Shown: positions 2,491-62,752 of the stretch, one piece after another
Position numbering within the stretch: position 1 is the stretch's first letter
Layout: every line of letters starts with the position of its first letter
NCBI RefSeq assembly: GCF_044704955.1
Contig: NC_091993.1
Coordinates: forward strand, 128,650,001 to 128,714,000
Direction of reading: 5' to 3'
Length of the DNA stretch: 64,000 nucleotides
DNA from: Pristiophorus japonicus
Taxonomy: Eukaryota
Translations under genes and position numbers: made by a program
Notes under the pieces: model-generated
What the model saw: only the letters and a program-made list of their open reading frames with translations
What the model was told of the DNA's origin: nothing
The model's database searches: none

Positions 2491-2748
2491 GTCGAGACCC
2501 ACCTGGAGAATCCCACCAAATACCACATCCAGCAGTCGCAGAGGCAACAGGTGAAGCAATACCTGTCCACCACCTTGGGCAACAAGCTGGCCACACAGGC
2601 CCTGTCGCTGGGACACTCGCATTCTCCTCAACCTACCACCGCATCGCCCGGCATCAGGAATGACCATGTGCTGCCCAACTCCACTGGAAACAGCGCCCCG
2701 AACAGCCCGATGGCCATGCTCAACATCGGCTCCAATCCCGAGCGAGAG
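2491..2748 (+). CDS. TFEB: TFEB coding exon (N-terminal regulatory region with mTORC1/ERK serines)
   Basis: ctgcAG|GTC...GAG|GTacag, 258 nt, phase 0/0. Encodes [32 protein letters not shown]...[35 protein letters not shown], matching the [23 protein letters not shown] segment. Confidence 0.95.
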
Positions 2749-3509: not shown

Positions 3510-3605
3510 ATGGACGATGTGATTGACGATATCATTAGCCTGGAATCCAGCTACAATGACGATATTCTGGGGTACACAGAGCCTGAACTACAGACGCCGA
3601 ATACT
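3510..3605 (+). CDS. TFEB: TFEB coding exon (acidic activation domain)
   Basis: tttctAG|ATG...ACT|GTaagt, 96 nt. Encodes [32 protein letters not shown]. Too short to appear in the ORF track. Confidence 0.95.
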
Positions 3606-4539: not shown

Positions 4540-5185
4540 AAGACAAGCATTCTATAGCGCCTTTCACAACCTCAGGATTCCCCAAAACCCTTTGCAGCCC
4601 GTTATGAACTTTTGAAGTGCAGTCACTGTTGTAATGTGGGAAACACGGCATCCAATAGTGCACAGCAAGGTCCCACAACAGCAATGTGATAATGAGCAGA
4701 TCAACTGTTTTAGAGATGATAATTGCAGGATAAATATTGGCCAGGACACTGGGGAGAACTCCCCTGCTCTTCTTCAAAACAGTGCTCTGGGACTTTTTAC
4801 GTCCACCTGAGAGAGCAGACGGGGCCTCGGTTTAACGTCTCATCCGAAAGACGGCACCTCCGACAGTGCAGCACTCCCTCAGTACTGCCCCTCCGACAGT
4901 GCGACGCTCCCTCTGTACTGCCCCTCCGACAGTGCGGCACTCCCTCAGTGCGGCGCTCCCTCAGTACTGCCCCTCGGACAGTGCGGCGCTCCCTCAGTAC
5001 TGCCCCTCCGACAGTGCGGCACTCCCTCAGTACTGCCCCTCCGACAATGCAGCACTCCCTCAGTACTGACACTCCGACAATGCGGCACTATATTATATGC
5101 TCAAGTCTCAGGAGTGGGACTTGAACCCTCGACCTTCTGACTCCGAGATGAGAGAGTGCTGACCACTGAGCCACAGCTGACACCC
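4540..5185 (-). mobile_element. DeuSINE (SacSINE1/AmnSINE1-related) with internal 33-bp array (~7 units, 4858-5090)
   Basis: On the minus strand: tRNA-like head (TGGCTCAGTGG, GGTTCAAGTCC), Deu core GGATGAGACGTTAAACCGAGG, and tail GGCGCTATAGAATGC. Confidence 0.85.
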
Positions 5186-6840: not shown

Positions 6841-8364
6841 GTTCAGTAAATCAGAACTTACCTTCTGGGCATCTCATTGGCTGGACGGGCAGCTGAGACT
6901 GGGGGTGGGCGAGACTCATTTGGTTCCACTCTTACTCATCCGATTGTAGCCAGAGCATCGCCAGCAACGGCTTCTCTTCCCGCTTCAGCCTGTACCTCAA
7001 CAACACAGCCCAACCCTTCCAACACCTGCCTCAATCTCTCCGCTACCTTCGTGACGTCACACTGACTGTCCTACATTCGGTCTTGGGCGGAATGCAATCT
7101 CCGCCAGTTGAACATTGGGAAGACTGAAGCCGTCATTGTTGGACCTCGCTACAATCGCCGTACCCTTGCTGCTGATTCCGTTCTCTGTCCCCGCCCATTG
7201 AGGCCGAACCAGAAATCAGTGAACGGGAGCATGGCAAGCCATGGCGGTTGGAGAGGACAAAGGGAGAGAGATGAATTGGACTTCGTGTGGGGCAAGATGT
7301 GGGCAGCGGAGTCCTGAATGAGTTGGTGCAGAATCCAAGTGGTCCAGATTTAGGAGAGTAGGGAGTGTGTCGGGACCATAACACCAGATGTTAAGATCAA
7401 TCTGCCAAACATGATGTTACGCGCTGTCGCTAACTTTAGACTGCAATGTTTAGTGAGTCTGTGAGGCTTGCTTCCAACGGCTATAAGATAGGACCTGACT
7501 GCGAAATGCCCAGGAAACAGCCATCGAATGGGAGGCAATAATGTTATAGGATGGACTCAACCCTCCATTTGTTTGTCCATTACATCGTCACCATCAGAAA
7601 TTAATAACTGGTGAAACTCCCTAAATACTTCTGAATAAGAAATATAATAATTTAGCCCTTGATGGTTGTCTGTATATTGGAACCAATGATCCAGTTCTGA
7701 CCCGTGTGGTGGTGCATGCAATGATGGGATAACAATTTGTCCCAAATGAAATTGAGAAAGACCCCTAGGAGTCACCGAGCGTTTTTAACGTGAAGACCCG
7801 CACCTCTCGGAATCCTCAGTCCTGTTGAGCTGCAGCAAGGGCTGGTAGCTCGCTCTCTCCCTGAGCCCAATGCTAAGACATCACACTCTCCACAGTAGCT
7901 ACTTTTGAAGAACCGAGAATCAGCAGGGTCCAATCTGACAAAGTGCTGACTCACATTGGGTGCCGTTCCGCAGGCCGACAAGAAATATCGCAACACAAGG
8001 AAAGTTGGAGGCGGGAGAAAGTTCACCAGTCAGAAACCTTCCCTGCTCCTGGTCGAGGAATGTGAGCTAGGTGTGTGAAGTGTGTCACCACAACCGGGAG
8101 CAGGATTCGGCTCTGGGACCACTTCATTCCAAGTTGTTGAGGGGGCGGGAAGTATTTGGCAAGAAAGGGGATTTTGAGTTTCTTGCACAGTTCCTTCTAA
8201 CCTCATCCACTCAGCACAATCTTTGACCCGTTGCAAACTCGGGACTTGCTTAATCTCAGGTTTTTTTTTGAAAGCCTCTGCTGTAAACATTAACAATGTT
8301 GCTTCCAGAGGTTACGTTCTAACTGCTGGGAACAAGCTAAAACCTTGCTGCTGTTCCGTCTCGC

Positions 8365-8462
8365 CCAATAAAGAGCTGAAAGTCTGAGAGGGAGGGGGAG
8401 GGGGAGGGGGAGGTTAAAGTTCTCTCACTCCTCCCTTGAGCTGCGATCCTCTGCCCTCCCAG
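8365..8462 (+). promoter_or_regulatory. Candidate intronic promoter and/or 3' splice site
   Basis: CCAAT at 8365-8369, (GGGGGA)n boxes at 8390-8413, Inr-like TCACTCC at 8425-8431, and a pyrimidine tract plus AG ending at 8462. Confidence 0.35.
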
Positions 8463-8464
8463 CA

Positions 8465-8554
8465 ATGCCGGTCTCTGAAGACAATGAGAGCCTAAAGGAG
8501 CCAAGGAGGACCATTGCCATCCTTAAGATCCATAACCCTCTGCACTTCCAGCGG
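8465..8554 (+). CDS. Candidate alternative TFEB exon (30 codons)
   Basis: gcaATG...CAGCGG|GTAAGA. Encodes MPVSEDNESLKEPRRTIAILKIHNPLHFQR. Phase 0, compatible with the exon at 16274. No homology recognised. Confidence 0.4.
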
Positions 8555-8649
8555 GTAAGACCTCTGCCAGCAAACGGCAAATCCAGCATGGCGCTGTCGG
8601 ATTCAGACAACGCGATGGCGAAGTGTGGCTGCATTCTGTTCAAGCCCGC

Positions 8650-9219
8650 TCCCTGCCCATCTCTCCGTTTGTCTCTGTCTCTTTCGCTCTCTTTCCCGTC
8701 GCTCTCTTTCTCTCATTATCTCTTTCTGCCCCACTCTCTCTCTCTCTCTCTCTCTCTATGTAATATTGAAATAATCTCCTTTGCCCCCCATGCTCTGAGT
8801 AGAGCACTGTTGTTGGGGTATGTCAAGCCCCACTGCAGCGTGCATGTGCTGTGCACTTTTCTCGCGTGGATAATAGATTTTAGTCTTAGCTTTTATTTTT
8901 TCCACTCTGATTTCCTCCCCCCTCTCCTGAAGGTTCTGACAGGGACCAGGAAATGCCTCAAACTGCAGCCTCTGTCTCTGTTTCTCTCTCTCTCTGCATC
9001 TGTGTCTGTCTTTCTCATTTGTTTCTCGCTCTGGAGCTCTCGCTCTCTTTGCTCGTCCCCTCCCTCCCTGTCTTTCTGTGACTCTGCTGCTATTTCTGTC
9101 GCTCTCTCTTTTTCGCTCCCTGATTTCTGATTCTTTATCCTGCCTGTAGCTCTCTCTGTCTTTGTTTCTGACTCTCTCCCTCGCTCTCTCTCTCTCGGTC
9201 TGCCCATCCCTCCGTTTGT

Positions 9220-11551: not shown

Positions 11552-11962
11552 GTGTCAGCCTCAGTGGGTAGCACACTCACCTCTGAGACAGGAGGTCATG
11601 GGTTCCTGTCCCACTCCAGAGACTTGAGCGCATAATCCAGGCCGACACTCCCAGTGCAGTACTGAGGGAGCGCTGTACTGTCGGAGGGGCAGTACTGAGG
11701 GAGCGCTGCACTGTCGGAGGGGCAGGACTGAGGGAGCGCTGCACTATCGGAGGGGCGGTACTGAGGGAGCACTGCACTGTCGGAGAGGCAGTACTGAGGG
11801 AGCGCCGCACTGTCGGAGGGGCAGTACTGAGGGAGCGCTGCACTGTCGGAGGGACAGTACTGAGGGAGTGCTGCACTGTCAGAGGGACAGTACTGAGGGA
11901 GCGCTGCACTGTCGGAGGGGCAGTACTGAGGGAGCGTTGCACTGTCAGATGAGACATTAAAC
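11552..11962 (+). mobile_element. DeuSINE 5' half with 33-bp array (~9 units)
   Basis: Head GTGTCAGCC..CAGTGGGTAGCAC, array at 11653-11948, truncated after GATGAGACATTAAAC. Followed by (CA)-rich sequence to ~12125. Confidence 0.85.
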
Positions 11963-15040: not shown

Positions 15041-15872
15041 GTGTCAGCCGTGGCTCAGTGGGCAGCACTCTCGCCTCTGAGTCAAGGTTGTGGGGTCAAG
15101 TCCCACTCCAGGAACTTGAGCACAAAAATCTAGGCTGACACTCCAGTGCAGTACTGAGGGAGTGCTGCACTGTCGGAGGGGCAGTGCTGAGGGAGTGCCG
15201 CACTGTCGGAGGGGCAGTGCTGAGGGAGTGCCGCACTGTCGGAGGGGCAGTACTGAGGGAGTGCCGCACTGTCGGAGGGGCAGTACTGAGGGAGTGCCGC
15301 ACTGTCGGAGGGGCAGTACTGAGGGAGGGCTGCACTGTCGGAGGGGCAGTACTGAGGGAGTGCTGCACTGTTGGAGGGGCAGTACTGAGGGAGTGCTGCA
15401 CTGTCGGAGGGGCAGTGCTGAGGGAGTGCCGCACTGTCGGAGGGGCAGTGCTGAGGGAGTGCCGCACTGTCGGAGGGGCAGTACTGAGGGAGTGCCGCAC
15501 TGTCGGAGGGGCAGTACTGAGGGAGTGCCGCACTGTCGGAGGGGCAGTACTGAGGGAGCGCTGCACTGTCGGAGAGGCAGTGCTGAGGGAGCTCCGCACT
15601 GTCGGAGGTTTCATCTTTAGGATGAGACATTAAACCGAGGTCCCGTCTGCCCTCTCAGGTGGACGTAAAAGATCCCATAGCACTATTTCGAAGTGCAATA
15701 TTTATCCCTCAATCAACATACCAAAAAAACATTATCTGGTCATCATCACATTGCTGTTTGTGGGAGCTTGCTGTGCACAAATTGGCTGCCATGTTTCCCA
15801 CATTATAAAAGTGACGACATCCAAACGTTCATTGGATGTGAAGCGCTTTGAGATGTCCGGTGGTCGTGAACC
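15041..15872 (+). mobile_element. DeuSINE with 33-bp array (~14 units, 15146-15608)
   Basis: A box TGGCTCAGTGG, degenerate B box, Deu core and most of the tail. Confidence 0.88.
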
Positions 15873-16273: not shown

Positions 16274-16379
16274 TTGCCTCTTTCCACGAGCCATTTAGAT
16301 GTCTACACGAGCCATGGGATTGCAACACCCACCAGCATATCGTGTCCTGCAAATATTGCCATTAAAAGGGAAATGTCAG
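16274..16379 (+). CDS. TFEB: TFEB coding exon (14-3-3 site SCP, S211-equivalent)
   Basis: cctccAG|TTG...TCAG|GTaaac, 106 nt, phase 0/1. Encodes LPLSTSHLDVYTSHGIATPTSISCPANIAIKREMS. Not in the ORF track. Confidence 0.95.
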
Positions 16380-23092: not shown

Positions 23093-23148
23093 GTGAGTAG
23101 CAGTTGTGCCAATGTTGTGACCAGTTGTTTGTTTTTGGCTACATACAG

Positions 23149-23199
23149 AAGCTCGTGCTCTGGCCAAAGAGCGACAGAAGAAAGACAATCACAACCTGA
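23149..23199 (+). CDS. TFEB: TFEB coding exon (start of basic region); 5' border uncertain (23125, 23143 or 23149)
   Basis: (E)ARALAKERQKKDNHNL(I), donor A|GTGAGT at 23200, phase 1/1. Confidence 0.93.
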   Translation, partial: KLVLWPKSDRRKTITT

Positions 23200-23789: not shown

Positions 23790-24662
23790 GCCAGTGGGCA
23801 GTGGGTAGCACTCTTGCTCCTGAATCAGAATGTTGTGGGTTCAAGTCCTGCTCCAGACACTTGAGCACAAAATTCAGGCTGACAATCCCAGTGCTGAGGG
23901 AGTGCCGCACTTTCGGAGGGGCAGTACTGAGGGAGTGCCGCACTGTCGGAGGGGCAGTACTGAGGGAGCGCCGCACTGTCGGAGGGGCAGTGCTGAGGGA
24001 GTGCTGCACTGTCGGAGGGGCAGTGCTGAGAGAGCGCCGCACTGTCGGAGGGGCAGTACTGAGGGAGCGCCGCACTGTCGGAGGGGCAATACTGAGGGAG
24101 TGCCGCACTGTCGGAGGGGCAGTACTGAGGGAGCGCCGCACTGTCGGAGGGGCAGTGCTGAGGGAGTGCTGCACTGTCGGAGGGGCAGTGCTGAGAGAGC
24201 GCCGCACTGTCGGAGGGGCAGTACTGAGGGAGCGCCGCACTGTTGGAGGGACAGTACTGAGGAAGCGCTGCACTGTCGGAGGGACAGTACTGAGGGAGCG
24301 CCGCACTGTCGGAGGGACAGTACTGAGGGAGCGCCGCACTGTCGGAGGTGCAGTCTTTCTGATGAGACGTTAAAACGAGGCCCTGTCTGCTCTCTCAGGT
24401 AAAATATCCGATGGCACTATTTCGAAGAAGAGCAGGGGAGTTATCCCCGGTGTCCTGGGCCATCAAACAACATCACAAAAACAGATTATCTGGTCATTAT
24501 CACATTGCTGTGTGTGGGAGCTTGCTGTGCACAAATTAGCTGCCGCGTTTCCCACATTACAACAGTGACTGCACTCCAAAAGTACTTCATTGGCTGTAAC
24601 GCACTTTGGGATGTCTGGTAGTCCTGAAAGGCGCTATAGAAATGCAAGTCTGTCTTTCTCTC
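23790..24662 (+). mobile_element. DeuSINE with 33-bp array (~14 units, 23889-24348)
   Basis: B box GGTTCAAGTCC, Deu core, tail AAAGGCGCTATAGAAATGCAAGTC. Confidence 0.9.
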
Positions 24663-25081: not shown

Positions 25082-25300
<219 letters not shown>

Positions 25301-26961: not shown

Positions 26962-27109
26962 GGATGTCCGCTGGAACAAGGGGACGATACTGAAAGCCTC
27001 GGTGGAATACATCAAAAGACTCCAGAAGGATCAGCATAGAACCAGAGAGATGGAGGGCCACTCGAAGCGGCTGGAGATGAACAACAGCCACCTCCGCTTT
27101 CGCATTCAG
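26962..27109 (+). CDS. TFEB: TFEB coding exon (helix 2 + leucine zipper)
   Basis: ctgcAG|G GAT GTC CGC TGG...ATT CAG|GTgaga, 148 nt. Encodes [49 protein letters not shown]. Confidence 0.97.
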
Positions 27110-27162: not shown

Positions 27163-28345
27163 TGTCGGCCAAGGCTCAGTGGGCAGCACTCTCGTCTCTG
27201 AGTCAGAAGGTCGTGGGTTCAAGTCCCACTCCTGAGACTTGAACACAGAATCTAGGCTAACACTCCCAGTGCAGTACTGAGGGAGTGCTGCACTGTCGGA
27301 GGGGCAGGACTGAGGGAGTGCTGCACTGTCGGAGGGGCAGTACTGAGGGAGTGCTGCACTGTCGGAGGGGCAGGACTGAGGGAGTGCTGCACTGTCGGAG
27401 GGGCAGGACTGAGGGAGTGCTGCACTGTCGGAGGGGCAGTACTGAGGGAGGGCTGCACTGTCGAAGGGGCAGTACTGAGGGAGTGCTGCACTGTCGGAGG
27501 GGCAATACCGAGGGAGTGCTGCACTGTCGGAGGGGCAGTACTGAGGGAGCGCTGCACTGTCGGAGGGGCAGTACTGAGGGAGCGCTGCACTGTCGGAGGG
27601 GCAGTACTGAGGGAGCGCTGCACTGTCGGAGGGGCAGTACTGAGGGAGCGCTGCACTGTCGGAGGGGCAGTACTGAGGGAGTGCTGCACTGTCGGAGGGG
27701 CAGTACTGAGGGAGCGCTGCACTGTCGGAGGGGCAGTACTGAGGGAGCGCTGCACTGTCGGAGGGGCAGTACTGAGGGAGCGCTGCACTGTCGGAGGGGC
27801 AGTACTGAGGGAGCGCTGCACTGTCGGAGGGGCAGTACTGAGGGAGCGCTGCACTGTTGCAGGTGCTGTCTTTCAGATGAGACGTTAAACCGAGGCCCCG
27901 TCTGCTCTCTCAGGTGGACGTAAAAGATCTTTTGGCACTATTTCAAAGAAGAGCAGGGGGAGTTCTCCCTTGTGTCCTGGCCAACATTGATCACTGAAAC
28001 AGATTATCTGGTCATTATCACATTGCTGTTTGGGCCTTGCTGTGCGCAAATTAAGTGCTATGTTTCCTACATTAAAGAAAGAAAGACTTGCATTTATATA
28101 GCGCCTTTCACGACCACGGGATGTTGCAAAGCGCTTTACAGCCAATGAAGTACTTTTGGAGTGTTGTCACAGTTGTAATGTGGGAAATGCGGCACCAATT
28201 TGCGCACAGCAAGCTCCCACACACAGCAATGTGATGACCAGATCATCTTTTTTTTGTTATGTTGGTTGTGGGACATCACTTAAAAAGTACTTCATTGGCT
28301 GTGAAGTGCTGAGGTTGTGAAAGGCGCTATATAAATGCAAGTTTT
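27163..28345 (+). mobile_element. DeuSINE with 33-bp array (~18 units, 27268-27858) and an inverted SINE tail inserted at ~28074-28270
   Basis: A/B boxes at 27173-27225 and Deu core. The + tail is interrupted by AAAGAAAGACTTGCATTTATATAGCGCC (minus-strand tail). Confidence 0.88.
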
Positions 28346-28398: not shown

Positions 28399-28803
28399 GA
28401 GCTGGAAATGCAAGCTCAGGCCCACGGACTGTCTACCGTCTCGCCCTCGGGGCTCAACACATCGGAGCTCACGGGCCCCTTCATCAAACATGAGCAGAAT
28501 GTCATGGACTCGCTCCAGCATCACCAGCTACACCAGCAGCCTCCCCAGAGCCAACTGGACTTTGCTCAGTCCCTTGACCTGTGCGACAACTCGCTGGGCT
28601 TCGCTGACCCCATGGGCCAATTTACTGACCTCTCCTTCGGCATCGCCGCCAAAAAGGAATACCAGCTGGATGACATGCTGATGATGGACGACACGCTCTC
28701 CCCCTTGGGCAGAGACCCTTTGCTCTCCTCAGGGTCCCCCGAAGCTTCCAAAGCCAGCAGCAGAAGGAGCAGCATTAGTATGGACGATGCTGACATTCTG
28801 TGA
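28399..28803 (+). CDS. TFEB: TFEB last coding exon
   Basis: ccgcAG|GAG CTG...ATT CTG TGA. Encodes ELEMQAQAHGL...LDFAQSL...DDTLSPLGRDPLLSSGSPEASKASSRRSSISMDDADIL*. The SPEASKASSRRSS ending is TFEB-type. Confidence 0.96.
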   Translation, partial: ELEMQAQAHGLSTVSPSGLNTSELTGPFIKHEQNVMDSLQHHQLHQQPPQSQLDFAQSLDLCDNSLGFADPMGQFTDLSFGIAAKKEYQLDDMLMMDDTLSPLGRDPLLSSGSPEASKASSRRSSISMDDADIL

Positions 28804-33728: not shown

Positions 33729-36700
33729 TAGAAACATAGAAACATAGAAAATAGGTGCAGGAGTAGGCCATTTGGCCCTTCCAGCCTGCACCGCCATTCA
33801 ATGAGTTCATGGCTGAACATGCAACTTCAGTACCCCATTCCTGCTTTCTCGCCATACCCCTTGATCCCCCTAGTAGTAAGGACTTCATCTAACTCCTTTT
33901 TGAATATATTTAGTGAATTGGCCTCAACAACTTTCTGTGGTAGAGAATTCCACAGGTTCACCACTCTCTGGGTGAAGAAGTTTCTCCTCATCTCGGTCCT
34001 AAATGGCTTACCCCTTATCCTTAGATTGTGGCTCCTGGTTCTGGACTTCCCCAACATTGGGAACATTCTTCCTACATCTAACCTGTCCAAACCCATCAGA
34101 ATTTTAAACGTTTCTATGAGATCCCCTCTCATTCTTCTGAACTCCAGTGAATACAAGCCCAGTTGATCCAGTCTTTCTTGATAGGTCAGTCCCACCATCC
34201 CGGGAATCAGTCTGGTGAACCTTCGCTGCATTCCCTCAATAGCAAGAATGTCCTTCCTCAGGTTAGGAGACCAAAACTGTACACAATACCAAGGCCCTGT
34301 ACAACTGTAGCAACACCTCCCTGCCCCTGTACTCAAATCCCCTCGCTATGAAGGCCAACATGCCATTTGCTTTCTTAACCGCCTGCTGTACCTGCATGCC
34401 AATCTTCAATGACTGATGTACCATGACACCCAGGTCTCGTTGCACCTCCCCTTTTCCTAATCTGTCACCATTCAGATAATAGTCTGTCTCTCTGTTTTTA
34501 CCACCAAAGTGGATAACCTCACATTTATCCACATTATACTTCATCTGCCATGCATTTGCCCACTCACCTAACATATCCAAGTCACTCTGCAGCCTCATAG
34601 CATCCTCCTCGCAGCTCACACTGCCACCCAACTTAGTGTCATCCGCAAATTTGGAGATACTACATTTAATCCCCTCGTCTAAATCATTAATGTATAGCGT
34701 AAACAGCTGGGGCCCCAGCACAGAACCTTGCAGTACCCCATTAGTCACTGCCTGCCATTCTGAAAAGTCCCCATTTATTCCTACTCTTTGCTTCCTGTCT
34801 GACAACCAGTTCTCAATCCATGTCAGCACACTACCCCCAATCCCATGTGTTTTAACTTTGCACATTAATCTCTTGTGTGGGACCTTGTCGAAAGCCTTCT
34901 GAAAGTCCAAATATACCACATCAACTGGTTCTCCCTTGTCCACTCTACTGGAAACATCCTCAAAAAATTCCAGAAGATTTGTCAAGCATGATTTCCCTTT
35001 CACAAATCCATGCTGACTTGGACCTATCATGTCACCTCTTTCCAAATGCGCTGCTATGACATCCTTAATAATTGATTCCATCATTTTACCCACTACCGAT
35101 GTCAGGCTGACCGGTCTATAATTCCCTGTTTTCTCTCTCCCTCCTTTTTTAAAAAGTGGGGTTACATTGGCTACCCTCCACTCGATAGGAACTGATCCAG
35201 ATTCAATGGAATGTTGGAAAATGACTGTCAATGCATCCGCTATTTCCAAGGCCACCACCTCAAGTACTCTGGGATGCAGTCCATCAGGCCCTGGAGATTT
35301 ATCGGCCTTCAATCCCATCAATTTCCCCAACACAATTTCCCGACTAATAAAGATTTCCCTCAGTTCCTCCTCCTTACTAGACCCTCTGACCCCTTTTATA
35401 TCCGGAAGGTTGTTTGTGTCCTCCTTCGTGAATACCGAACCAAAGTACTTGTTCAATTGGTCTGCCATTTATTTGTTCCCCGTTATGACTTCCCCTGATT
35501 CTGAGGGGGACCTACGTTTGTCTTAACTAACCTTTTACTCTTTACATATTTATAGAAACTTTTGCAATCTGTCTTAATGTTCCCTGCAAGCTTCTTCTCG
35601 TACTCCATTTTCCCTACCCTAATCAAACCCTTTGTCCTCCTCTGCTGAGTTCTAAATTTCTCCCAGTCCCCGGGTTCGCTGCTATTTCTGGTCAATTTGT
35701 ATGCCACTTCCTTGGCTTTAATACTATCCCTGATTTCCCTTGATAGCCACGGTTGAGCCACCTTCCCTTTTTTATTTTTACGCCAGACAGGAATGTACAA
35801 TTGTTGTAGTTCATCCATGCGGTCTCTAAATGTCTGCCATTGCCCATCCACAGTCAACCCCTTAAGTATCATTCGCCAATCTATCCTAGCCAATTCACAC
35901 CTCATACCTTCAAAGTTACCCTTCTTTAAGTTCTGGACCATGGTCTCTGAATTAACTGTTTCATTCTCCATCCTAATGCAGAATTCCACCATATTATGGT
36001 CACTCTTCCCCAAGGGGCCTCGCACAACGAGATTGCTAATTAATCCTCTCTCATTACATAACACCCAGTCTCAGATGGCCTCCCCCCTAGTTGGTTCCTC
36101 ACATATTGGTCTAGAAAACCATCCCTTATGCACTCCAGGAAATCCTCCTCCACCGTATTGCTTCCAGTTTGGTTAACCCAATCTATGTGCATATTAAAGT
36201 CATCCATTATAACTGCTGCACCTTTATTGCATGCACCCCTAATTTCCTGTTTGATGCCCTCCCCAACATCACTACTACTGTTTGGAGGTCTGTACACAAC
36301 TCCCACTAACGTTTTTTGCCCTTTGGTGTTCTGCAGCTCTACCCATATAGATTCCACATCATCCAAGCTAATGTCCTTCCTAACTATTGCATTAATCTCC
36401 TCCTTAACCAGCAATGCTACCCCACCTCCTTTTCCTTTTATTCTATCCTTCCTGAATGTTGAATACCCCTGGATGTTGAGTTCCCAGCCCTGATCATCCT
36501 GGAGCCACGTCTCCGTAATCCCAATCACATCATATTTGTTAACATCTATTTGCACAGTTAATTCATCCACCTTATTACGGATACTCCTTGCATTAAGACA
36601 CAAAGCCTTCAGGCTTGTTTTTTTAACACCCTTTGTCCTTTTAGAATTTTGCTGTACAGTGGCCCTTTTTGTTTTTTGCCTTGGGTTTCTCTGCCTTCCA

Positions 36701-36848
36701 CTTTTCCTCATCTCCTTTCTGTCTTTTGCTTTTGTCTCCTTTTTGTTTCCCTCTGTCTCCCTGCATTGGTTCCTATCCCCCTGCCATATTAGTTTAACTC
36801 CTCCCCAACAGCACTAGCAAACACTCCCCCTAGGACATTGGTTCCGGT
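33727..36848 (-). mobile_element. Young CR1 LINE, 5'-truncated at end of ORF1; ORF2 (APE + RT) broken by 3 frameshifts
   Basis: ORF pieces 36040-36711, 35483-36064, 34263-35468 and 33827-34336 ([27 protein letters not shown]). (CATAGAAA)n tail at 33727. Confidence 0.96.
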
Positions 36849-38209: not shown

Positions 38210-38600
38210 GACAAACACACACACTCTCACACTCACTCACACACACATACTCACACTCACATACTCACANNNNNNNNNNNNNNNNNNNNNNNNNNNNNNN
38301 NNNNNNNNNNNNNNNNNNNNNNNNNNNNNNNNNNNNNNNNNNNNNNNNNNNNNNNNNNNNNNNNNNNNNNNNNNNNNNNNNNNNNNNNNNNNNNNNNNNN
38401 NNNNNNNNNNNACACACACATACTCACACTCTCACCTCACACACACATACTCACACTTACACACTGCCCTCACACACACATACTCACACTCTCACCTCAC
38501 ACACACTGCCCTCACACTCACACACACTGCCCTCACACACACATACTCACACACACATACTCACACTCACACACACACACACTGCCCTCACACTCACACC
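38210..38600. repeat. CA-rich simple repeat containing an assembly gap (N at 38270-38411)
   Basis: Direct inspection. Confidence 0.97.
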
Positions 38601-44047: not shown

Positions 44048-45046
44048 TGTTTGGGCGGTGTGTAGGCCCCATGTTTTCACCGGTTAATTTGGAGGTAAAG
44101 CACTGGGGCTGTGAATTCTCGATAGAGCTCCAAAGGTGAACAGCTCTCCCTTGGAGCTTGAAAGTTGGAAATGAACCCCAAAGATCTCAGGGTAGAGGGA
44201 CATCCGCAACACGGTTGGGTATTCAGGGCTGGGGATGGTGAAGTACCAGAGGCTTAGGCTTCGCTAGGCCGAGTTTCCTCCTTGGCTTCTCAAACTCAGG
44301 AGTGGAAATGAAATATCGGGAACGGACCCCATTTAATGCCACCCAGTTCCTTCCACCACCCCCACACCCCCACACCTCCAGATACTATCTGCCATCCACA
44401 CTTGTATAAGGGGGGGGGGGGGGAGGGATGAACAGTTCAGATCCTGTCCGTGGTGAGGGAATGGGGTTCCCGGCAATGCCACTGGGACTAAAATGCCGCC
44501 CAAGGTGGTATGAGGTGAAATCCATTCATAACTTTCATGGTGTGGCGAATAAAACCTTTTTCTTAAACAAAAATACGGTTTGAAGATTAAGACAAAGCAG
44601 CTGAGAGGAGAAGGGCCAGCACTGTGCCCCGAGGTAACTCGACTCACTCTCGGGAGACTGGGGCGAGTGACCTTCTGAGGGTTTTTCGTTGATGTGGCTT
44701 GTCAGCGTTTGAACATGTGTTGAAACAAATAGGTGCTATGACCCCTCACACCTACCCACTGTCCCCTCACCAGCACACGGGGGTAAAATCACACAATTCT
44801 TTCCCGAGTTGTTGTAATGCGAAGGAACAAAAAACTTCAAACAATGACGTTCACACGATGTTAATCCAGAGTGTTACTGGCATAAGCATCACACTGCCGC
44901 TGAGAAGCTCACCTCGATAAATACACAGATGGGTTTCTTTGAAATTGTAGTTTGGTGTTCCGGTGTGCTTATTGCAAGAGTGAATCACGAGCAAAGCGAA
45001 TTCTGGGGAGGTTTATCAGCTACTCTGTATTGGGTTCGACAGTGAT

Positions 45047-48000
45047 GGGCGGAGACTGTCCTGTCCCCGGGGGAGACTGTCCTGTCCCCGGGGGAGACTG
45101 TCCTGTCCCCGGGGGAGACTGTCCTGTCCCCGGGGAGACTGTCCTGCTCTGGGGGAGACTGTCCTGTCCCCGGGGAGACTGTCCTGTCCCCGGGGGAGAC
45201 TGTCCTGTTCCCGGGCGAGACTGTCCTGTTCCCGGGGGAGACTGTCATGTCCCCGGGGGAGACTGTCCTGTTCTGGGGGAGACTGTCATGTCCCCGGGGA
45301 GACTGTCCTGTCCCGGGGGAGACTGTCCTGTCCCCGGGGAGACTGTCCTGTTCTGGGAGAGACTGTCCTGTCCCCGGGGAGACTGTCCTGTCCCCGGGGA
45401 GACTGTCCTGTCCCCGGGGAGACTGTCCTGTTCCAGGGGAGACTGTCCTGTCCCCGGGGAGACTGTCCTGTCCCTGGGGAGAGACTGTCCTGTCCCTGGG
45501 GAGAGACTGTCCTGTCCCTGGGGGGAGACTGTCCTGTCCCTGGGGGAGACTGTCCTGTCCCCGGGGAGACTGTCCTGTCCCGGGGGAGACTGTCCTGTCC
45601 CCGGGGAGACTGTCCTGTTCTGGGAGAGACTGTCCTGTCCCCGGGGAGACTGTCCTGTCCCCGGGGAGACTGTCCTGTCCCCGGGGAGACTGTCCTGTTC
45701 CAGGGGAGACTGTCCTGTCCCCGGGGAGACTGTCCTGTCCCTGGGGAGAGACTGTCCTGTCCCTGGGGAGAGACTGTCCTGTCCCTGGGGGGAGACTGTC
45801 CTGTCCCTGGGGGAGACTGTCCTGTCCCCGGGGAGACTGTCCTGTCCCCGGGGGAGACTGTCCTGTTCCCGGGGGAGACTGTCATGTCCCCGGGGGAGAC
45901 TGTCATGTCCCCGGGGAGACTGTCCTGTTCTGGGGGAGACTGTCCTGTTCCCGGGGGAGACTGTCCTGTTCCCGGGGGAGACTGTCATGTCCCCGGGGGA
46001 GACTGTCATGTCCCCGGGGGAGACTGTCATGTCCCCGGGGGAGACTGTCCTGTTCTGGGGGAGACTGTCATGTCCCCGGGGAGACTGTCATGTCCCCGGG
46101 GAGACTGTCCTGTTCTGGGGGAGACTGTCCTGTCACCGGGGAGACTGTCCTGTTCTGGGGGAGACTGTCCTGTCCCCGGGGAGACTGTCCTGTCCCCGGG
46201 GAGACTGTCCTGTCCCCGGGGAGACTGTCCTGTCCCCGGGGAGACTGTCCTGTTCCGGGGGAGACTGTCCTGTTCCGGGGGAGACTGTCCTGTCCCGGGG
46301 GAGACTGTCCTGTCCCGGGGAAACTGTCCTGTCCCCGGGGGAGACTGTCCTGTCCCCGGGGGAGACTGTCCTGTCCCCGGGGGAGACTGTCCTGTCCCCG
46401 GGGGAGACTGTCCTGTCCCCGGGGGGACTGTCCTGTCCCCGGGGAGACTGTCCTGTCCCCGGGGAGACTGTCCTGTCCCCGGGGGAGACTGTCCTGTCCC
46501 CGGGGGAGACTGTCCTGTCCCCGGGGAGACTGTCCTGCTCTGGGGGAGACTGTCCTGTCCCCGGGGAGACTGTCCTGTCACCGGGGGAGACTGTCCTGTC
46601 CCCGGGGGAAACTGTCCTGTCCCCGGGGAGACTGTCCTGCTCTGGGGGAGACTGTCCTGTCCCCGGGGAGACTGTCCTGTCCCCGGGGGAGACTGTCCTG
46701 TCCCCGGGGGAAACTGTCCTGTCCCCAGGGAGACTGTCCAGTCCCCGGGGAGACTGTCATGTCCCCGGGGGAGACTGTCCTGTTCTGGGAGAGACTGTCA
46801 TGTCCCCGGGGAGACTGTCCTGTTCTGGGGGAGACTGTCCTGTTCCCGGGGGAGACTGTCCTGTCCCCGGGGGAAACTGTCCTGTCCCCGGGGGAAACTG
46901 TCCTGTCCCCGGGGAGACTGTCCTGCTCTGGGGGAGACTGTCCTGTCCCCGGGGAGACTGTCCTGTCCCCGGGGGAGACTGTCCTGTCCCCGGGGGAGAC
47001 TGTCCTGTCCCCGGGGAGACTGTCCTGTCCCCGGGGAGACTGTCCTGTCCCCGGGGGAGACTGTCCTGTCCCCGGGGTAAACTGTCCTGTCCCCAGGGAG
47101 ACTGTCCAGTCCCCGGGGAGACTGTCCTGTCCCTGGGGGGAGACTGTCCTGTCCCTGGGGGAGACTGTCCTGTCCCCGGGGGAGACTGTCCTGTCCCCGG
47201 GGGAGACTGTCCTGTCCCCGGGGGAGACTGTCCTGTTCCCGGGGGAGACTGTCATGTCCCCGGGGGAGACTGTCCTGTTCTGGGGGAGACTGTCATGTCC
47301 CCGGAGAGACTGTCCTGTTCTGGGGGAGACTGTCCTGTTCCCGGGGGAGACTGTCCTGTTCCCGGGGAAGACTGTCATGTCCCCGGGGGAGACTGTCCTG
47401 TTCTGGGGGAGACTGTCCTGTTCTGGGGGAGACTGTCATGTCCCCGGGGAGACTGTCCTGTTCTGGGGGAGACTGTCCTGTCCCCGGGGAGACTGTCCTG
47501 TTCTGGGGGAGACTGTCCTGTCCCCGGGGAGACTGTCCTGTCCCCGGGGAGACTGTCCTGTCCCCGGGGAGACTGTCCTGTTCCGGGGGAGACTGTCCTG
47601 TTCCGGGGGAGACTGTCCTGTCCCGGGGGAGACTGTCCTGTCCCGGGGAAACTGTCCTGTCCCCGGGGGAGACTGTCCTGTCCCCGGGGGAGACTGTCCT
47701 GTCCCCGGGGAGACTGTCCTGTCCCCGGGGAGACTGTCCTGTCCCCGGGGGAGACTGTCCTGTCCCCGGGGGAGACTGTCCTGTCCCCGGGGGAGACTGT
47801 CCTGTCCCCGGGGAGACTGTCCTGCTCTGGGGGAGACTGTCCTGTCCCCGGGGAGACTGTCCTGTCACCGGGGGAGACTGTCCTGTCCCCGGGGGAAACT
47901 GTCCTGTCCCCGGGGAGACTGTCCTGCTCTGGGGGAGACTGTCCAGTCCCCGGGGAGACTGTCCTGTCCCCGGGGGAGACTGTCCTGTCCCCGGGGGAGA

Positions 48001-48340
48001 CTGTCCTGTCCCCGGGGAGACTGTCCTGTCCCCGGGGGAGACTGTCCTGTCCCCGGGGGAAACTGTCCTGTCCCCAGGGAGACTGTCCAGTCCCCGGGGA
48101 GACTGTCCTGTCCCCAGGGAGACTGTCCTGTCCCGGGGGAGACTGTCCTGTCCCCGGGGAGATTGTCCTGTCCCCGGGGAAACTGTCCTGTCCCCGGGGA
48201 GATTGTCCTGTCCCCGGGGGAGACTGTCCTGTCCCCGGGGAGACTGTCCTGCTCTGGGGGAGACTGTCCAGTCCCCGGGGAGACTGTCCTGTCCCCGGGG
48301 AGACTGTCCTGTCCCGGGGGAGACTGTCCTGTCCCCGGGT
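45047..48340. repeat. 3.3-kb 20/21-bp satellite, ~160 units
   Basis: GGGG(G)AGACTGTCCTGTCCCC with recurring variants. Confidence 0.98.
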
Positions 48341-48745
48341 GGTCCGGTGATGTGGACTGAGCGAGTGGTGGAACATAAATCTTTCTATACGGACGTCTCA
48401 GAGCCAGCGAGGGTGTCTGCAGCTCCGAAGCTCCCCTGTGTCGGGGCTGACCCCAGGCCTGTGCTGTGCAGCTGGACTGAATTTCAATTCAGTTTTAAAA
48501 ATCTGGAAATAAGAAGCTCCTCTCAGTAAAAGTGAGCATGAAGCTGTCAGATTGCTGTAAAAACCCAACTGGTTACTGCTGTCCTTCAGAGAATGAAACC
48601 TGCCATCCTTACCCAGCCTGAGCTCACATTACAACAGTGACTGCACTCCAAAACTACTTCATTGGCTAAAAAGCGCTTTGGGATGTCTGGTGGTTGTGAA
48701 AGGTGCTATATAAATGCAAGTCCTTCCTCCCCTTCCCTTTTTTAT

Positions 48746-58889: not shown

Positions 58890-59776
58890 ACACCAGTGTC
58901 CCTGACGACTACATGTGCGGGAAGTGTGTCCACCTCCGGCTACTGACGGTCCGCGTTGCGGAGTTGGAGCTGAAGGTGGATTCACTCTGGAGCATCCACG
59001 ATGCTGAGAATGACGTGAGTATCACGTGTAGCGAGTTGGTCTTACTGCAGGAGAAGGGTCCACAGCCAGCGAGGGAATGGAAGACCAGCAGGAAGAGTAG
59101 TGCAAGGAAGGTAGTGCAGGGGTCCCCTGTGGTCATCCCCCTGCAAAACAGATACACCGCTTTGAGTACTGTTGAGGGGGATGACTCATCAGGGGAGGGC
59201 AGCAGCAGCCAAGTTCATGGCACCGTGGCTGGCTCTGTTGCACAGGAGGGCAGGAAAAAGAGTGGAAGAGCGATAGTGATAGGGGATTCAATTGTAAGGG
59301 GAATAGATAGGCGTTTCTGCGGCCGCAACCGAGACTCCAGGATGGTATGTTGCCTCCCTGGTGCAAGGGTCAAGGATGTCTCGGAGCGGGTGGAGGACAT
59401 TCTAAAAAGGGAGGGAGAACAGCCAGTTGTCATGGTGCACGTTGGTACCAATGACATAGGTAAAAAAAGGGATGAGTTCCTACGAAATGAATTTAAGGAG
59501 CTAGGAGCTAAATTAAAAAGTAGGACCTCAAAAGTAGTAATCTCGGGATTGCTACCAGTGCCACGTGCTAGTCAGAGTAGGAATCGCAGGATAGCTCAGA
59601 TGAATACGTGGCTTGAGCAATGGTGCAGCAGGGAGGGATTCAAATTCCTGGGGCATTGGAACCGGTTCTGGGGGAGGTGGGACCAGTACAATCCGGACGG
59701 TCTGCACCTGGGCAGAATCGGAACCAATGTCCTCGGGGGAGTGTTTGCTAGTGCTGTTGGGGAGGAGTTAAACTAA
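58890..59776 (+). CDS. CR1 ORF1p (partial Zn-finger/leucine zipper + SGNH esterase domain), N-terminus missing
   Basis: YMCGKC...LELKVDSL; IVIGDS, LPGA, VHVGTND and DGLHL blocks. Confidence 0.9.
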
Positions 59777-59853
59777 TATGGCAGGGGGATGGGAACCAAT
59801 GCAGGGAGATAGAGGGAAACAAAAAGGAGGCAAAAACAAAAGACAGAAAGGAG

Positions 59854-62752
59854 ATGAGGAAAAGTGGAGGGCAGAGAAACCCAAGGCAAAGAACAAAAAG
59901 GGCCATTGTACAGCAAAATTCTAAAAGGACAGAGGGTGTTAAAAAAACAAGCCTAAAGGCTTTGTGTCTTAATGCAAGGAGTATCCGCAATAAGGTGGAT
60001 GAATTAACTGTGCAAATAGATGTTAACAAATATGATGTGATTGGGATTACGGAGACGTGGCTCCAGGATGAGCAGGGCTGGGAACTCAACATCCAGGGGT
60101 ATTCAACATTCAGGAAGGATAGAATAAAAGGAAAAGGAGGTGGGGTAGCATTGCTGGTTAAGGAGGAGATTAAGGCAATAGTTAGGAAGGACATTAGCTT
60201 GGATGATGTGGAATCTATATGGGTAGAGCTGCAGAACACCAAAGGGCAAAAAACGTTAGTGGGAGTTGTGTACAGACCTCCAAACAGTAGTAGTGATGTT
60301 GGGGAGGGCATCAAACAGGAAATTAGGGGTGCGTGCAATAAAGGTGCAGCAGTTATAATGGGTGACTTTAATATGCACATAGATTGGGCTAACCAAACTG
60401 GAAGCAATACGGTGGAGGAGGATTTTCTGGAGTGCATAAGGGATGGTTTTTTAGACCAATATGTCGAGGAACCAACTAGGGGGGAGGCCATCTTAGACTG
60501 GGTGTTATGTAATGAGAAAGGATTAATTAGCAATCTCGTTGTGCGAGGCCCCTTGGGGAAGAGTGACCATAATATGGTGGAATTCTGCATTAGGATGGAG
60601 AATGAAACAGTTAATTCAGAGACCATGGTCCAGAACTTAAAGAAGGCTAACTTTGAAGGTATGAGGCGTGAATTGGCTGAGATGGATTGGCGAATGATAC
60701 TGAGGGGGTTGACTGTGGATGGGCAATGGCAGACATTTAGAGACCGCATGGATGAACTACAACAATTGTACATTCCTGTCTGGCATAGAAATAAAAAAGG
60801 GAAGGTGGCTCAACCGTGGCTATCAAGGGAAATCAGGGATAGTATTAAAGCCAAGGAAGTGGCATACAAATTGGCCAGAAATAGCAGCGAACCTGGGGAC
60901 TGGGAGAAATTTAGAACTCAGCAGAGGAGGACAAAGGGTTTGATTAGGGCAGGGAAAATGGAGTATGAGAAGAAGCTTGCAGGGAACATTAAGACGGATT
61001 GCAAAAGTTTCTATAGATATGTAAAGAGAAAAAGGTTAGTAAAGACAAATGTAGGTCCCCTGCAGTCAGAATCAGGGGAAGTCATAACGGGGAACAAAGA
61101 AATGGCGGACCAATTGAACAAGTACTTTGGTTCGGTATTCACGAAGGAGGACACGAACAACCTTCCGGTTATAAAAGGGGTCGGGGGGTCTAGTAAGGAG
61201 GAGGAACTGAGGGAAATCCTTATTAGCCGGGAAATTGTGTTGGGGAAATTGATGGGATTGAAGGCCGATAAATCCCCAGGGCCTGCATCCCAGAGTACTT
61301 AAGGAGGTGGCCTTGGAAATAGTGGATGCGTTGACAGTCATTTTCCAACATTCCATGGACTCTGGATCAGTTCCTATGGAGTGGAGGGTAGCCAATGTAA
61401 CCCCACTTTTTAAAAAAGGAGGGAGAGAGAAAACAGGGAATTATAGACCGGTCAGCCTGACATCGGTAGTGGGTAAAATGATGGAATCAATTATTAAGGA
61501 TGTCATAGCAGTGCATTTGGAAAGAGGTGACATGATAGGTCCAAGTCAGCATGGATTTGTGAAAGGGAAATCATGCTTGACAAATCTTCTGGAATTTTTT
61601 GAGGATGTTTCCAGTAGAGTGGATAAGGGAGAACCAGTTGATGTGGTATATTTGGACTTTCAGAAGGCGTTCGACAAGGTCCCACACAAGAGATTGATGT
61701 GCAAAGTTAGAGCACATGGGATTGGGGGTAGTGTACTGACATGGATTGAGAACTGGTTGTCAGACAGGAAGCAAAGAGTAGGAGTAAATGGGTACTTTTC
61801 AGAATGGCAGGCAGTGACTAGTGGGGTACCGCAAGGTTCTGTGCTGGGGCCCCAGCTGTTTACACTGTACATTAATGATTTAGATGAGAGGATTAAATGT
61901 AGTATCTCCAAATTTGCGGATGACACTAAGTTGGGTGGCAGTGTGAGCTGCGAGGAGGATGCTGTGAGGCTGCAGAGCGACTTGGATAGGTTAGGTGAGT
62001 GGGCAAATGCATGGCAGATGAAGTATAATGTGGATAAATGTGAGGTTATCCACTTTGGTGGTAAAAACAGAGAGACAGACTATTATCTGAATGGTGACAG
62101 ATTAGGAAAAGGGGAGGTGCAAAGAGACCTGGGTGTCATGGTACATCAGTCATTGAAGGTTGGCATGCAGGTGCAGCAGGCGGTTAAGAAAGCAAATGGC
62201 ATGTTGGCCTTCATAGCAAGGGGATTTGAGTACAGGGGCAGGGAGGTGTTGCTACAGTTGTACAGGGCATTGGTGAGGCCACACCTGGAGTATTGTGTAC
62301 AGTTTTGGTCTCCTAACCTGAGGAAGGACATTCTTGCTATTGAGGGAGTGCAGCGAAGGTTCACCAGACTGATTCCCGGGATGGCGGGACTGACCTATCA
62401 AGAAAGACTGGATCAACTGGGCTTGTATTCACTGGAGTTCAGAAGAATGAGAGGGGACCTCATAGAAACATATAAAATTCTGACGGGGTTAGACAGGTTA
62501 GATGCAGGAAGAATGTTCCCAATGTTGGGGAAGTCCAGAACCAGGGGTCACAGTCTAAGGATAAGGGGTAAGCCATTTAGGACCGAGATGCGGAGGAACT
62601 TCTTCACCCAGAGAGTGGTGAACCTGTGGAATTCTCTACCACAGAAAGTTGTTGAGGCCAATTCACTAAATATATTCAAAAAGGAGTTAGATGAGGTCCT
62701 TACTGCTAGGGGGATCAAGGGGTATGGCGAGAAAGCAGGAATGGGGTACTGA
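59854..62752 (+). pseudogene. CR1 ORF2p (APE endonuclease + RT) with a single frameshift at ~61285
   Basis: ORFs 59854-61302 and 61307-62752. An 8-nt deletion is seen relative to the copies at 1-1053 and 33727-36848. Confidence 0.93.

What the first reader, a model, noticed from the sequence alone, without database searches (positions are those of the whole stretch)
8365..8560. Hidden exon in the long TFEB intron: N-truncated isoform start or poison exon
Seen: in non-repetitive intron sequence, an ATG at 8465 (purine at -3) opens exactly 30 codons ending at a strong donor CGG|GTAAGA (8554/8555) in phase 0. That is the phase needed to join the exon at 16274. Upstream lie CCAAT, tandem GGGGGA boxes and an Inr-like TCACTCC. 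Reading A (inference): an alternative first exon giving a TFEB without the N-terminal Rag-binding region, S122/S138/S142, NES and acidic activation domain, but keeping the S211 site and bHLH-Zip. That would be a candidate mTORC1-uncoupled or dominant-negative form. Reading B: CCTCTGCCCTCCCAG (ends 8462) is a good acceptor, giving a 92-nt cassette read QCRSLKTMRA* after the 3510-3605 exon, i.e. an NMD poison exon. Either would be a regulatory switch invisible to homology-based annotation.
Basis: partly seen in the sequence, partly recalled or inferred. Interest (0 to 1): 0.75.

Follow-up and report, generated by a model that had tools for sequence, protein, structure and literature searches.

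The report
Ancient internal start exon of TFEB
This stretch of a shark-type TFEB intron matches the alternative first exon annotated in sawfish and bony-fish TFEB and in mammalian TFEC, so it likely starts a short TFEB that lacks the nutrient-sensing end and is predicted to sit in the nucleus whatever the feeding state, a kind of isoform already described in zebrafish.

Summary
Observation confirmed: ATG 8465, 30 open codons, phase-0 donor GTAAGA at 8555; joined to the five downstream exons it gives 291 aa without internal stops. Reading A is supported. RefSeq sawfish TFEB X5 begins with a 17/30-identical peptide joined to the same exon. A profile of 24 teleost-TFEB and TFEC leaders, with no shark TFEB, ranks 8492-8554 first of 63,650 windows, ending exactly at the donor. 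The zebrafish 'tfeb short' qPCR primer lies in this leader, and human TFEC-C starts in an internal exon. So the isoform kind is known. Reading B (poison exon) computes correctly, but its acceptor is one of 10 equally good in the intron and conservation lies in the ATG frame. No RNA reads for this species could be examined. Possibly new: the TFEB and TFEC leaders are one homologous exon, likely older than their duplication, with a conserved hydrophobic motif and a 59-bp upstream block shared with one fish locus. A nuclear, weakly activating form fits zebrafish genetics better than a pure dominant negative.

The parts
2491..2748 (+). TFEB coding exon with the S122, S138 and S142 equivalents; skipped by the short isoform
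   Evidence: tblastn; Pfam PF15951; numbering from alignment to human TFEB 7ux2_P; splice sites
3510..3605 (+). TFEB coding exon with the acidic activation motif DDVIDD; skipped by the short isoform; ends in phase 0
   Evidence: matching region of horn shark TFEB hits the MITF TAD peptide 8e1d_B, the TAZ2-binding motif in bioRxiv 10.1101/2022.08.28.505448
8281..8339 (+). Non-coding block aligned to L001:1114-1171 upstream of the homologous teleost exon; holds an HNF1-like site (8282-8294); likely proximal promoter element
   Evidence: local score 39; 0 of 1254 window tiles and 0 of 88 L001 tiles reach it; HNF1-like match with 3 mismatches is at chance frequency window-wide
8365..8372 (+). CCAAT box overlapping an AATAAA hexamer
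   Evidence: sequence; no function shown
8375..8384 (+). GCTGAAAGTC, a 10-nt exact match to L001:1277-1286, where it is part of a DR1/HNF4-like site
   Evidence: exact-match chain statistic not significant
8386..8413 (+). GA-rich tract (tandem GGGGGA); a longer GA tract also lies upstream of the teleost exon
   Evidence: low complexity, masked in the conservation test
8411..8423 (+). DR1/HNF4-like site (2 mismatches to a recalled consensus); counterpart at L001:1292-1304
   Evidence: 15 such matches in the window against 15.6 expected
8425..8431 (+). Inr-like TCACTCC, candidate start site
   Evidence: unverified, pattern is common
8446..8462 (+). Pyrimidine-rich 5' UTR ending in CAG; could act as a cryptic acceptor (poison reading)
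   Evidence: 13 of 17 pyrimidines; one of 10 such sites in the intron
8465..8554 (+). Coding part of the internal first exon, 30 codons
   Evidence: 17/30 identical to residues 1-30 of sawfish TFEB X5 XP_051890433.1; other frames match 1-3 of 30 and contain stops
8492..8554 (+). 21-codon core homologous, without gaps, to teleost TFEB-short and TFEC leaders; the ancestral Met position is Leu (CTA) here
8555..8560 (+). Splice donor GTAAGA, phase 0; same position as the donor in L001 (GTAAGG)
16274..16379 (+). First shared exon, with the S211 equivalent
23149..23199 (+). Basic-region exon
25224..25299 (+). bHLH exon with the ERRRR nuclear localisation arginines
   Evidence: role of R245-247 from PMC3575543 section 10
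26962..27109 (+). HLH-leucine zipper exon
28399..28803 (+). Last coding exon with the C-terminal region and stop

Best explanation
8465-8554 is homologous to the first coding exon of the annotated short TFEB and TFEC isoforms, so it is likely the start exon of an internal promoter whose transcript would splice to 16274 and give a 291-aa TFEB without Rag-binding region and acidic activation domain, predicted to be nuclear regardless of nutrients and likely a weak activator. Shown: sequence features, open 291-aa frame, orthology to sawfish X5, homology of the 21-residue core to teleost TFEB and to TFEC leaders. Inferred: transcription from about 8425 in this species; escape from Rag/mTORC1 control (from human delta-30 data); low activity through the retained C-terminal region or through heterodimers with full-length MiT/TFE proteins, so that it sets a basal level of lysosome-gene output and can dampen peaks by competing for sites. 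More weakly inferred: HNF1/HNF4-type control in kidney and gut epithelia, as for human TFEC-C, and a protein-docking role for the conserved T-[IVY]-A-I-[VL]-[EK]-[VI] strand.
For: Sawfish RefSeq TFEB X5 (296 aa) starts with a 30-aa peptide 17/30 identical, joined directly to the homologue of exon 16274; predicted product 237 identical positions to it. Conservation is confined to the ATG frame. Independent profile ranks the core 1 of 63,650 and it ends at the GT. 38 of 40 hits and 23 of 24 carry the leader. The tree puts leader-bearing proteins in both the TFEB (100/99) and TFEC (100/97) clades, each with cartilaginous and bony vertebrates. Zebrafish tfeb has an alternative-promoter short form lacking Rag-binding and transactivation domains (PMC12225984), and its qPCR primer encodes TYAIVE. 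Human TFEC-C was found by 5'-RACE in an exon between exons 3 and 4, restricted to kidney and small intestine (review PMC13115231). TFEB delta-30 loses S211 phosphorylation and 14-3-3 binding and stays nuclear (PMC3575543). Long-only zebrafish mutants live, long-plus-short mutants die. Upstream block conserved with a teleost locus.
Against: No transcript from this species was seen. The sawfish support is one computed RefSeq model; 35 of 36 chondrichthyan TFEB proteins fetched lack the leader. The shark leader is the most diverged of the family (ancestral Met replaced; positions 14 and 21 differ from 26 of 33 and 31 of 33 leaders). HNF1- and HNF4-like matches are at chance frequency, and the exact-match chain test was not significant (71 of 1254, 21 of 88). 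The promoter comparison rests on one fish locus. MITF's C-terminal activation region depends on the N-terminal domain (abstract of PMC10522771), which argues for little activity of a short homodimer. The authors of PMC12225984 leave compensation by other genes open. In the full-length model the leader is disordered (pLDDT about 44).
Confidence: 0.82

Rival explanations
1. Same exon and protein, but it acts mainly as a dominant negative or repressor: it holds CLEAR/E-box sites and traps full-length TFEB, TFE3 or MITF in weak dimers.
For: It lacks the DDVIDD motif needed for TAZ2 binding; MITF C-terminal activation needs the N-terminal domain (abstract); a TFE3 form without the activation domain is titled dominant negative in a cited paper (reference list only); TFEC is reported to antagonise TFE3 (review).
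Against: Zebrafish that keep only the short forms are viable and fertile while loss of all forms is lethal; PMC12225984 says the murine short TFE3 keeps some activity.
Confidence: 0.3
2. The main role is a 92-nt poison cassette (8463-8554) that brings a stop at 8493 into full-length transcripts and sends them to nonsense-mediated decay.
For: Acceptor has 13 of 17 pyrimidines, equal to the gene's own exon 3510; the stop lies 59 nt before the donor with more junctions downstream.
Against: Ten sites in the intron score as well. Amino-acid conservation is in the ATG frame, not the cassette frame. The teleost locus has a purine-rich stretch before its ATG and no CAG/TAG acceptor above 10 of 17 pyrimidines in the 150 nt upstream. 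Minor leaky use cannot be excluded.
Confidence: 0.06
3. The exon is a decaying relic in this species: homologous, but no longer transcribed.
For: Most diverged leader; ancestral Met lost; not annotated in the other sharks fetched.
Against: ATG, length, frame and donor are intact; the first seven residues are identical to sawfish, while other frames are broken; upstream block still aligns to a teleost.
Confidence: 0.07
4. The exon is used as an in-frame cassette (GAG acceptor at 8440/8441, 114 nt) that inserts 38 residues into full-length TFEB.
For: 8441-8554 is in frame and stop-free with 16 of 17 pyrimidines upstream; seven database models place the leader internally (P0093, P0129, P0137, P0140, P0186, P0196, P0197).
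Against: GAG acceptors are rare (established knowledge). Four RefSeq-listed models of the same catfish (P0198-P0201) lack the insertion, so the internal forms are likely gene-prediction fusions. 32 of 33 distinct leaders begin at a Met (the pattern used to collect them required it).
Confidence: 0.04

Closest known systems
Pristis pectinata TFEB isoform X5 (RefSeq XP_051890433.1, P0007)
   Same: 30-residue leader joined to the same exon, 17/30 identical; same domain content (no PF15951; HLH and DUF3371 kept).
   Different: A computed model; keeps the inner Met at position 10 that is Leu here; five residues longer.
Zebrafish tfeb short form (alternative promoter; PMC12225984 citing Lister 2011)
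   Same: Lacks Rag-binding and transactivation domains, keeps 14-3-3 motif and bHLH-LZ; primer encodes TYAIVE, the homologous core; teleost leaders are 21 residues ending at the same donor.
   Different: Shark leader has a 9-residue N-terminal extension and a diverged second half; expression measured in zebrafish, not here.
Human TFEC-C (exon 1c) and the 279/280-aa mammalian TFEC isoforms
   Same: Internal first exon between exons 3 and 4; mammalian, turtle and skate TFEC leaders align without gaps to 8492-8554 and join the paralogous exon.
   Different: Paralogous gene. That the database leader is exon 1c is inferred from position; the primary paper (Kuiper 2004, recalled) was not read.
MITF-M and engineered TFEB delta-30
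   Same: Loss of the Rag-binding N-terminus, hence nuclear accumulation (shown for delta-30; MITF-M recalled).
   Different: Both keep the acidic activation domain; this isoform loses it. MITF-M uses an unrelated exon further upstream.
Human small TFEB (PMC8548335; listing and start of abstract only)
   Same: A short TFEB isoform proposed as a regulator.
   Different: Opposite anatomy: it lacks HLH and zipper and arises by splicing, not by an internal promoter.

Membership tests
TFEB gene (MiT/TFE family) | Groups with TFEB rather than TFEC or MITF | tested here: met
   Best hits are shark and ray TFEB at 72-85% on the last exon; tree places the window in a 7-row chondrichthyan TFEB set, 100/96; no TFE3 row was available
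MiT/TFE internal-promoter short isoforms (zebrafish tfeb short, TFEC-C type) | First coding exon lies in the intron between the activation-domain exon and the S211 exon | tested here: met
   8465-8554 lies between 3605 and 16274
MiT/TFE internal-promoter short isoforms (zebrafish tfeb short, TFEC-C type) | Leader homologous to the family leader and ending at a phase-0 donor | tested here: met
   rank 1 of 63,650 with a shark-TFEB-free profile, ends at GT; 17/30 to sawfish
MiT/TFE internal-promoter short isoforms (zebrafish tfeb short, TFEC-C type) | Open frame through bHLH-zipper to the normal stop | tested here: met
   876 nt, 291 aa, no internal stop
MiT/TFE internal-promoter short isoforms (zebrafish tfeb short, TFEC-C type) | Capped transcript starting in the intron and spliced to the next exon | not testable with these tools
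   no run was available to lay reads on
MiT/TFE internal-promoter short isoforms (zebrafish tfeb short, TFEC-C type) | Conserved proximal promoter | tested here: inconclusive
   local alignment to one teleost locus beats all 1254 and 88 control tiles, chain statistic and motif counts do not
MiT/TFE internal-promoter short isoforms (zebrafish tfeb short, TFEC-C type) | Kidney and small-intestine restricted expression (TFEC-C) | not testable with these tools
   literature only
Poison (NMD) cassette exon | Premature stop more than about 50 nt before a downstream junction | tested here: met
   stop at 8493, 59 nt before the donor
Poison (NMD) cassette exon | Conserved acceptor, and nucleotide rather than reading-frame conservation | tested here: not met
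   conservation is of the ATG-frame peptide; no comparable acceptor in L001; other shark DNA not available
Poison (NMD) cassette exon | Inclusion rises when NMD is blocked | not testable with these tools
   needs RNA-seq with NMD inhibition

The most novel reading that the evidence does not exclude
TFEB-short and TFEC-C are one ancestral internal promoter-exon unit older than the TFEB/TFEC duplication, kept for over 450 million years as an HNF1/HNF4-driven, nutrient-insensitive MiT/TFE arm of kidney and gut epithelia, whose 21-residue leader is a beta-strand docking motif that replaces the Rag-binding end with another partner; mammals kept it in TFEC only, which would explain what TFEC-C is for.
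Probability: 0.3. Interest if true: 0.62.

Novelty: new member of a known kind. Interest (0 to 1): 0.38.

Why it matters
The exon is real and fixes an annotation gap in shark TFEB, but the isoform kind is known from zebrafish tfeb and human TFEC. The added value is evolutionary: the same leader is found in TFEB and TFEC of both cartilaginous and bony vertebrates, which ties two separately described isoforms to one likely ancestral design and points to a short conserved motif and a candidate promoter block that can be tested directly in zebrafish or human kidney cells. It also warns that TFEB knockouts aimed at the first exons in fish leave a likely nutrient-insensitive form intact.

Tried and rejected
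Protein search with the window's 40 codons from 8465 found no candidate (word-index limit). No whole genome is held for this window. RNA run search for 8300-8652: no RNA holder listed, none was listed at all, so no reads were laid; this is no evidence either way. The search for related loci could not use alignment A2. The metagenome pattern scan gave 1 locus, L001. A motif fitted by eye was mis-specified and found nothing; not used. Global two-sequence DNA alignment misplaced the promoter motifs; only its exon and donor register was used. ESM Atlas with a teleost leader: best score 0.79, below the 0.9 lead threshold. Pfam: no family for the 30-mer. Rfam 6900-8700: 0 matches. AlphaFold: leader disordered in the 296-aa model; in a 42-aa model two strands at 17-21 and 28-32 with mean pLDDT 61, a weak hint of a hairpin only. 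No TFE3, MITF or tetrapod TFEB protein with the leader was named among the hits; both searches have limited reach, so loss is not shown. One search used four mis-set exon ends and gave a broken frame; corrected. Lister 2011 (PMC3197887) and Vu 2021 (PMID 32846025) are not held; Kuiper 2004 was not looked up; any of them may already state the TFEB/TFEC leader homology. Paper searches for the leader peptides and for its evolution showed no such statement in listings. Earlier scan findings: none. Calcineurin PxIxIT-like or SUMO-interacting readings of the motif are recalled resemblances and were not tested.

Full report
Observation. The stretch lies in 1.75 kb with no other match in the window. 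These signals alone are not unusual: 9 of 17 GTRAG donors in the intron have an in-frame ATG upstream, 10 acceptor-like sites score as well as 8463, and the CCAAT and Inr patterns occur 155 and 619 times in the window.

The gene. The last exon's best relatives are shark and ray TFEB (72-85% identity), and a tree of 29 selected rows puts the window among chondrichthyan TFEB, 100/96 (no TFE3 row). Coding exons in the window are 2491-2748, 3510-3605, 16274-16379, 23149-23199, 25224-25299, 26962-27109 and 28399-28803. The exon with the Rag-binding N-terminus was not found in the window. By alignment to human TFEB (7ux2_P) the S122, S138 and S142 equivalents are in 2491-2748 and the S211 equivalent in 16274-16379; the acidic motif DDVIDD, which in MITF binds TAZ2 of CBP/p300 (passages of bioRxiv 10.1101/2022.08.28.505448), is in 3510-3605.

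Orthologue. Among 120 proteins, one matched the 30-mer far above the rest (score 81, next 39): RefSeq Pristis pectinata TFEB isoform X5, whose first 30 residues are 17/30 identical and are joined directly to the homologue of exon 16274. tblastn with it hits 8465-8557 at E=2.9e-05. Joining 8465-8554 to the five downstream exons gives 876 nt and 291 aa without internal stop, 237 positions identical to X5; the shifted frames of the exon match 1-3 of 30 and carry stops. Only this 1 of 36 chondrichthyan TFEB proteins fetched has the leader, so it is under-annotated, and the sawfish record is a computed model.

Deeper homology. The next three scores were 261-280 aa mammalian TFEC isoforms. A profile search returned 40 proteins, 38 with the leader: mammalian, turtle and skate TFEC and teleost TFEB; a second search returned 24, 23 with the leader. 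A profile from 24 distinct 21-residue leaders, none from shark TFEB, ranks 8492-8554 first of 63,650 stop-free windows (25.0, next 17.9; z=5.4), and that window ends exactly at the GT. The core T-[IVY]-A-I-[VL]-[EK]-[VI] is the best kept part; the family's Met is Leu here, and sawfish has both Met codons. Leader-bearing proteins fall in the TFEB clade (sawfish, teleosts) and in the TFEC clade (skate, turtle, mammals), so the exon likely predates both the cartilaginous/bony split and the TFEB/TFEC duplication (inference; transfer by gene conversion was not tested). No TFE3, MITF or tetrapod TFEB protein with the leader was named among the hits, which is weak evidence.

What is known. PMC12225984 (section 6, passages, supplements 1 and 10, primer rows of supplement 8) states that zebrafish tfeb and tfe3a have an alternative promoter giving short forms without Rag-binding and transactivation domains. 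Its 'tfeb short' primer translates to TYAIVE, so the measured zebrafish exon is this leader. A review (PMC13115231 section 8) reports human TFEC-C, found by 5'-RACE, starting in exon 1c between exons 3 and 4 and restricted to kidney and small intestine; PMC9363479 (passages) agrees that TFEC-C is a shorter protein. The primary papers were not available or not looked up, and may already note the homology; the searches listed no paper that does.

Promoter. One teleost-type locus with the leader was recovered (L001; assignment from its peptide). Its donor is in the same register. With GA-rich tracts masked, window 8281-8339 aligns to L001:1114-1171 with score 39; 0 of 1254 window tiles (mean 21.3, max 37) and 0 of 88 L001 tiles reach it. 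A chain of exact matches was not significant (71 of 1254; 21 of 88). The block holds an HNF1-like site in both species, and DR1/HNF4-like sites follow in both (8411-8423; L001 1276-1288 and 1292-1304), with a shared 10-mer GCTGAAAGTC. The consensus motifs are recalled and their counts are at chance level, so HNF control is a lead that fits the TFEC-C tissue pattern, not a finding.

Mechanism. Shown: anatomy and homology. Inferred: an internal promoter fires near 8425, the exon splices to 16274, and translation from 8465 gives a 291-aa protein. In human cells TFEB lacking its first 30 residues cannot bind Rags, loses S211 phosphorylation and 14-3-3 binding, and stays nuclear (PMC3575543 section 10); the short form also keeps the NLS arginines, so it is predicted to be nuclear whatever the nutrient state. 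It lacks the main activation motif. MITF's C-terminal region binds CBP/p300 but relies on the N-terminal domain (abstract of PMC10522771), which points to weak activity. Zebrafish keeping only the short forms are viable and fertile, while loss of all forms is lethal, with compensation by other genes left open by the authors. I therefore favour a weak constitutive activator that can also compete with full-length protein, over a pure dominant negative. The leader is disordered in the full model and forms a low-confidence two-strand element alone; a docking role is inferred from conservation only.

Poison reading. It computes (stop 59 nt before the donor), but the acceptor is ordinary, the conservation is in another frame, and L001 has no comparable acceptor. 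It may occur as minor leakage. An in-frame cassette from a GAG at 8440 is possible on paper; seven database models place the leader internally, but RefSeq-listed models of the same catfish do not.

Limits and verdict. No reads from this species could be examined, so expression here is untested. The finding is a real, conserved internal first exon, a new member of a known kind. Interest 0.38; the unifying TFEB/TFEC reading with a functional leader and epithelial promoter would merit about 0.62 at probability 0.3.

Noticed in passing
window 8367-8372: AATAAA overlaps the CCAAT box just upstream of the internal exon; one of 4 in the intron. It could serve as an intronic polyadenylation signal for upstream transcripts, or be chance.
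   Followed up: no
window 8484-8495: A second, out-of-frame ATG at 8484 opens a 3-codon ORF; with the ancestral Met at 8492 replaced, leaky scanning past 8465 would give no TFEB product.
   Followed up: partly
window 8441-8554: A GAG preceded by 16 of 17 pyrimidines would allow an in-frame 114-nt cassette.
   Followed up: partly
window 23140-23149: Several shark TFEB entries come as pairs two residues apart (450/448 aa) and sawfish X5 has two extra residues at this junction; the window has no AG six bases upstream of the 23149 acceptor, so that alternative acceptor seems absent here.
   Followed up: partly
window 4857-5089, 11656-11946, 15148-15608, 23889-24354, 27271-27857: Arrays of one 33-bp unit recur in both orientations within the TFEB introns, likely inside a SINE-type element.
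   Followed up: no
window about 1-1050, 34263-36813, 59748-62752: Related long ORF fragments that look like LINE reverse transcriptase (resemblance recalled).
   Followed up: no
window 44943-48529: GC-rich tandem repeat region with ORFs over 1100 aa in two frames; likely a satellite, not a gene.
   Followed up: no
window 38270-38411: Assembly gap of 142 N.
   Followed up: no
P0128, P0131, P0154, P0158 (rodent-type TFEC) and P0132, P0146, P0159, P0166 (teleost TFEB): Some lineages have their own in-frame upstream Met extending the leader by 7-15 residues, like the 9-residue extension in shark and sawfish TFEB.
   Followed up: no
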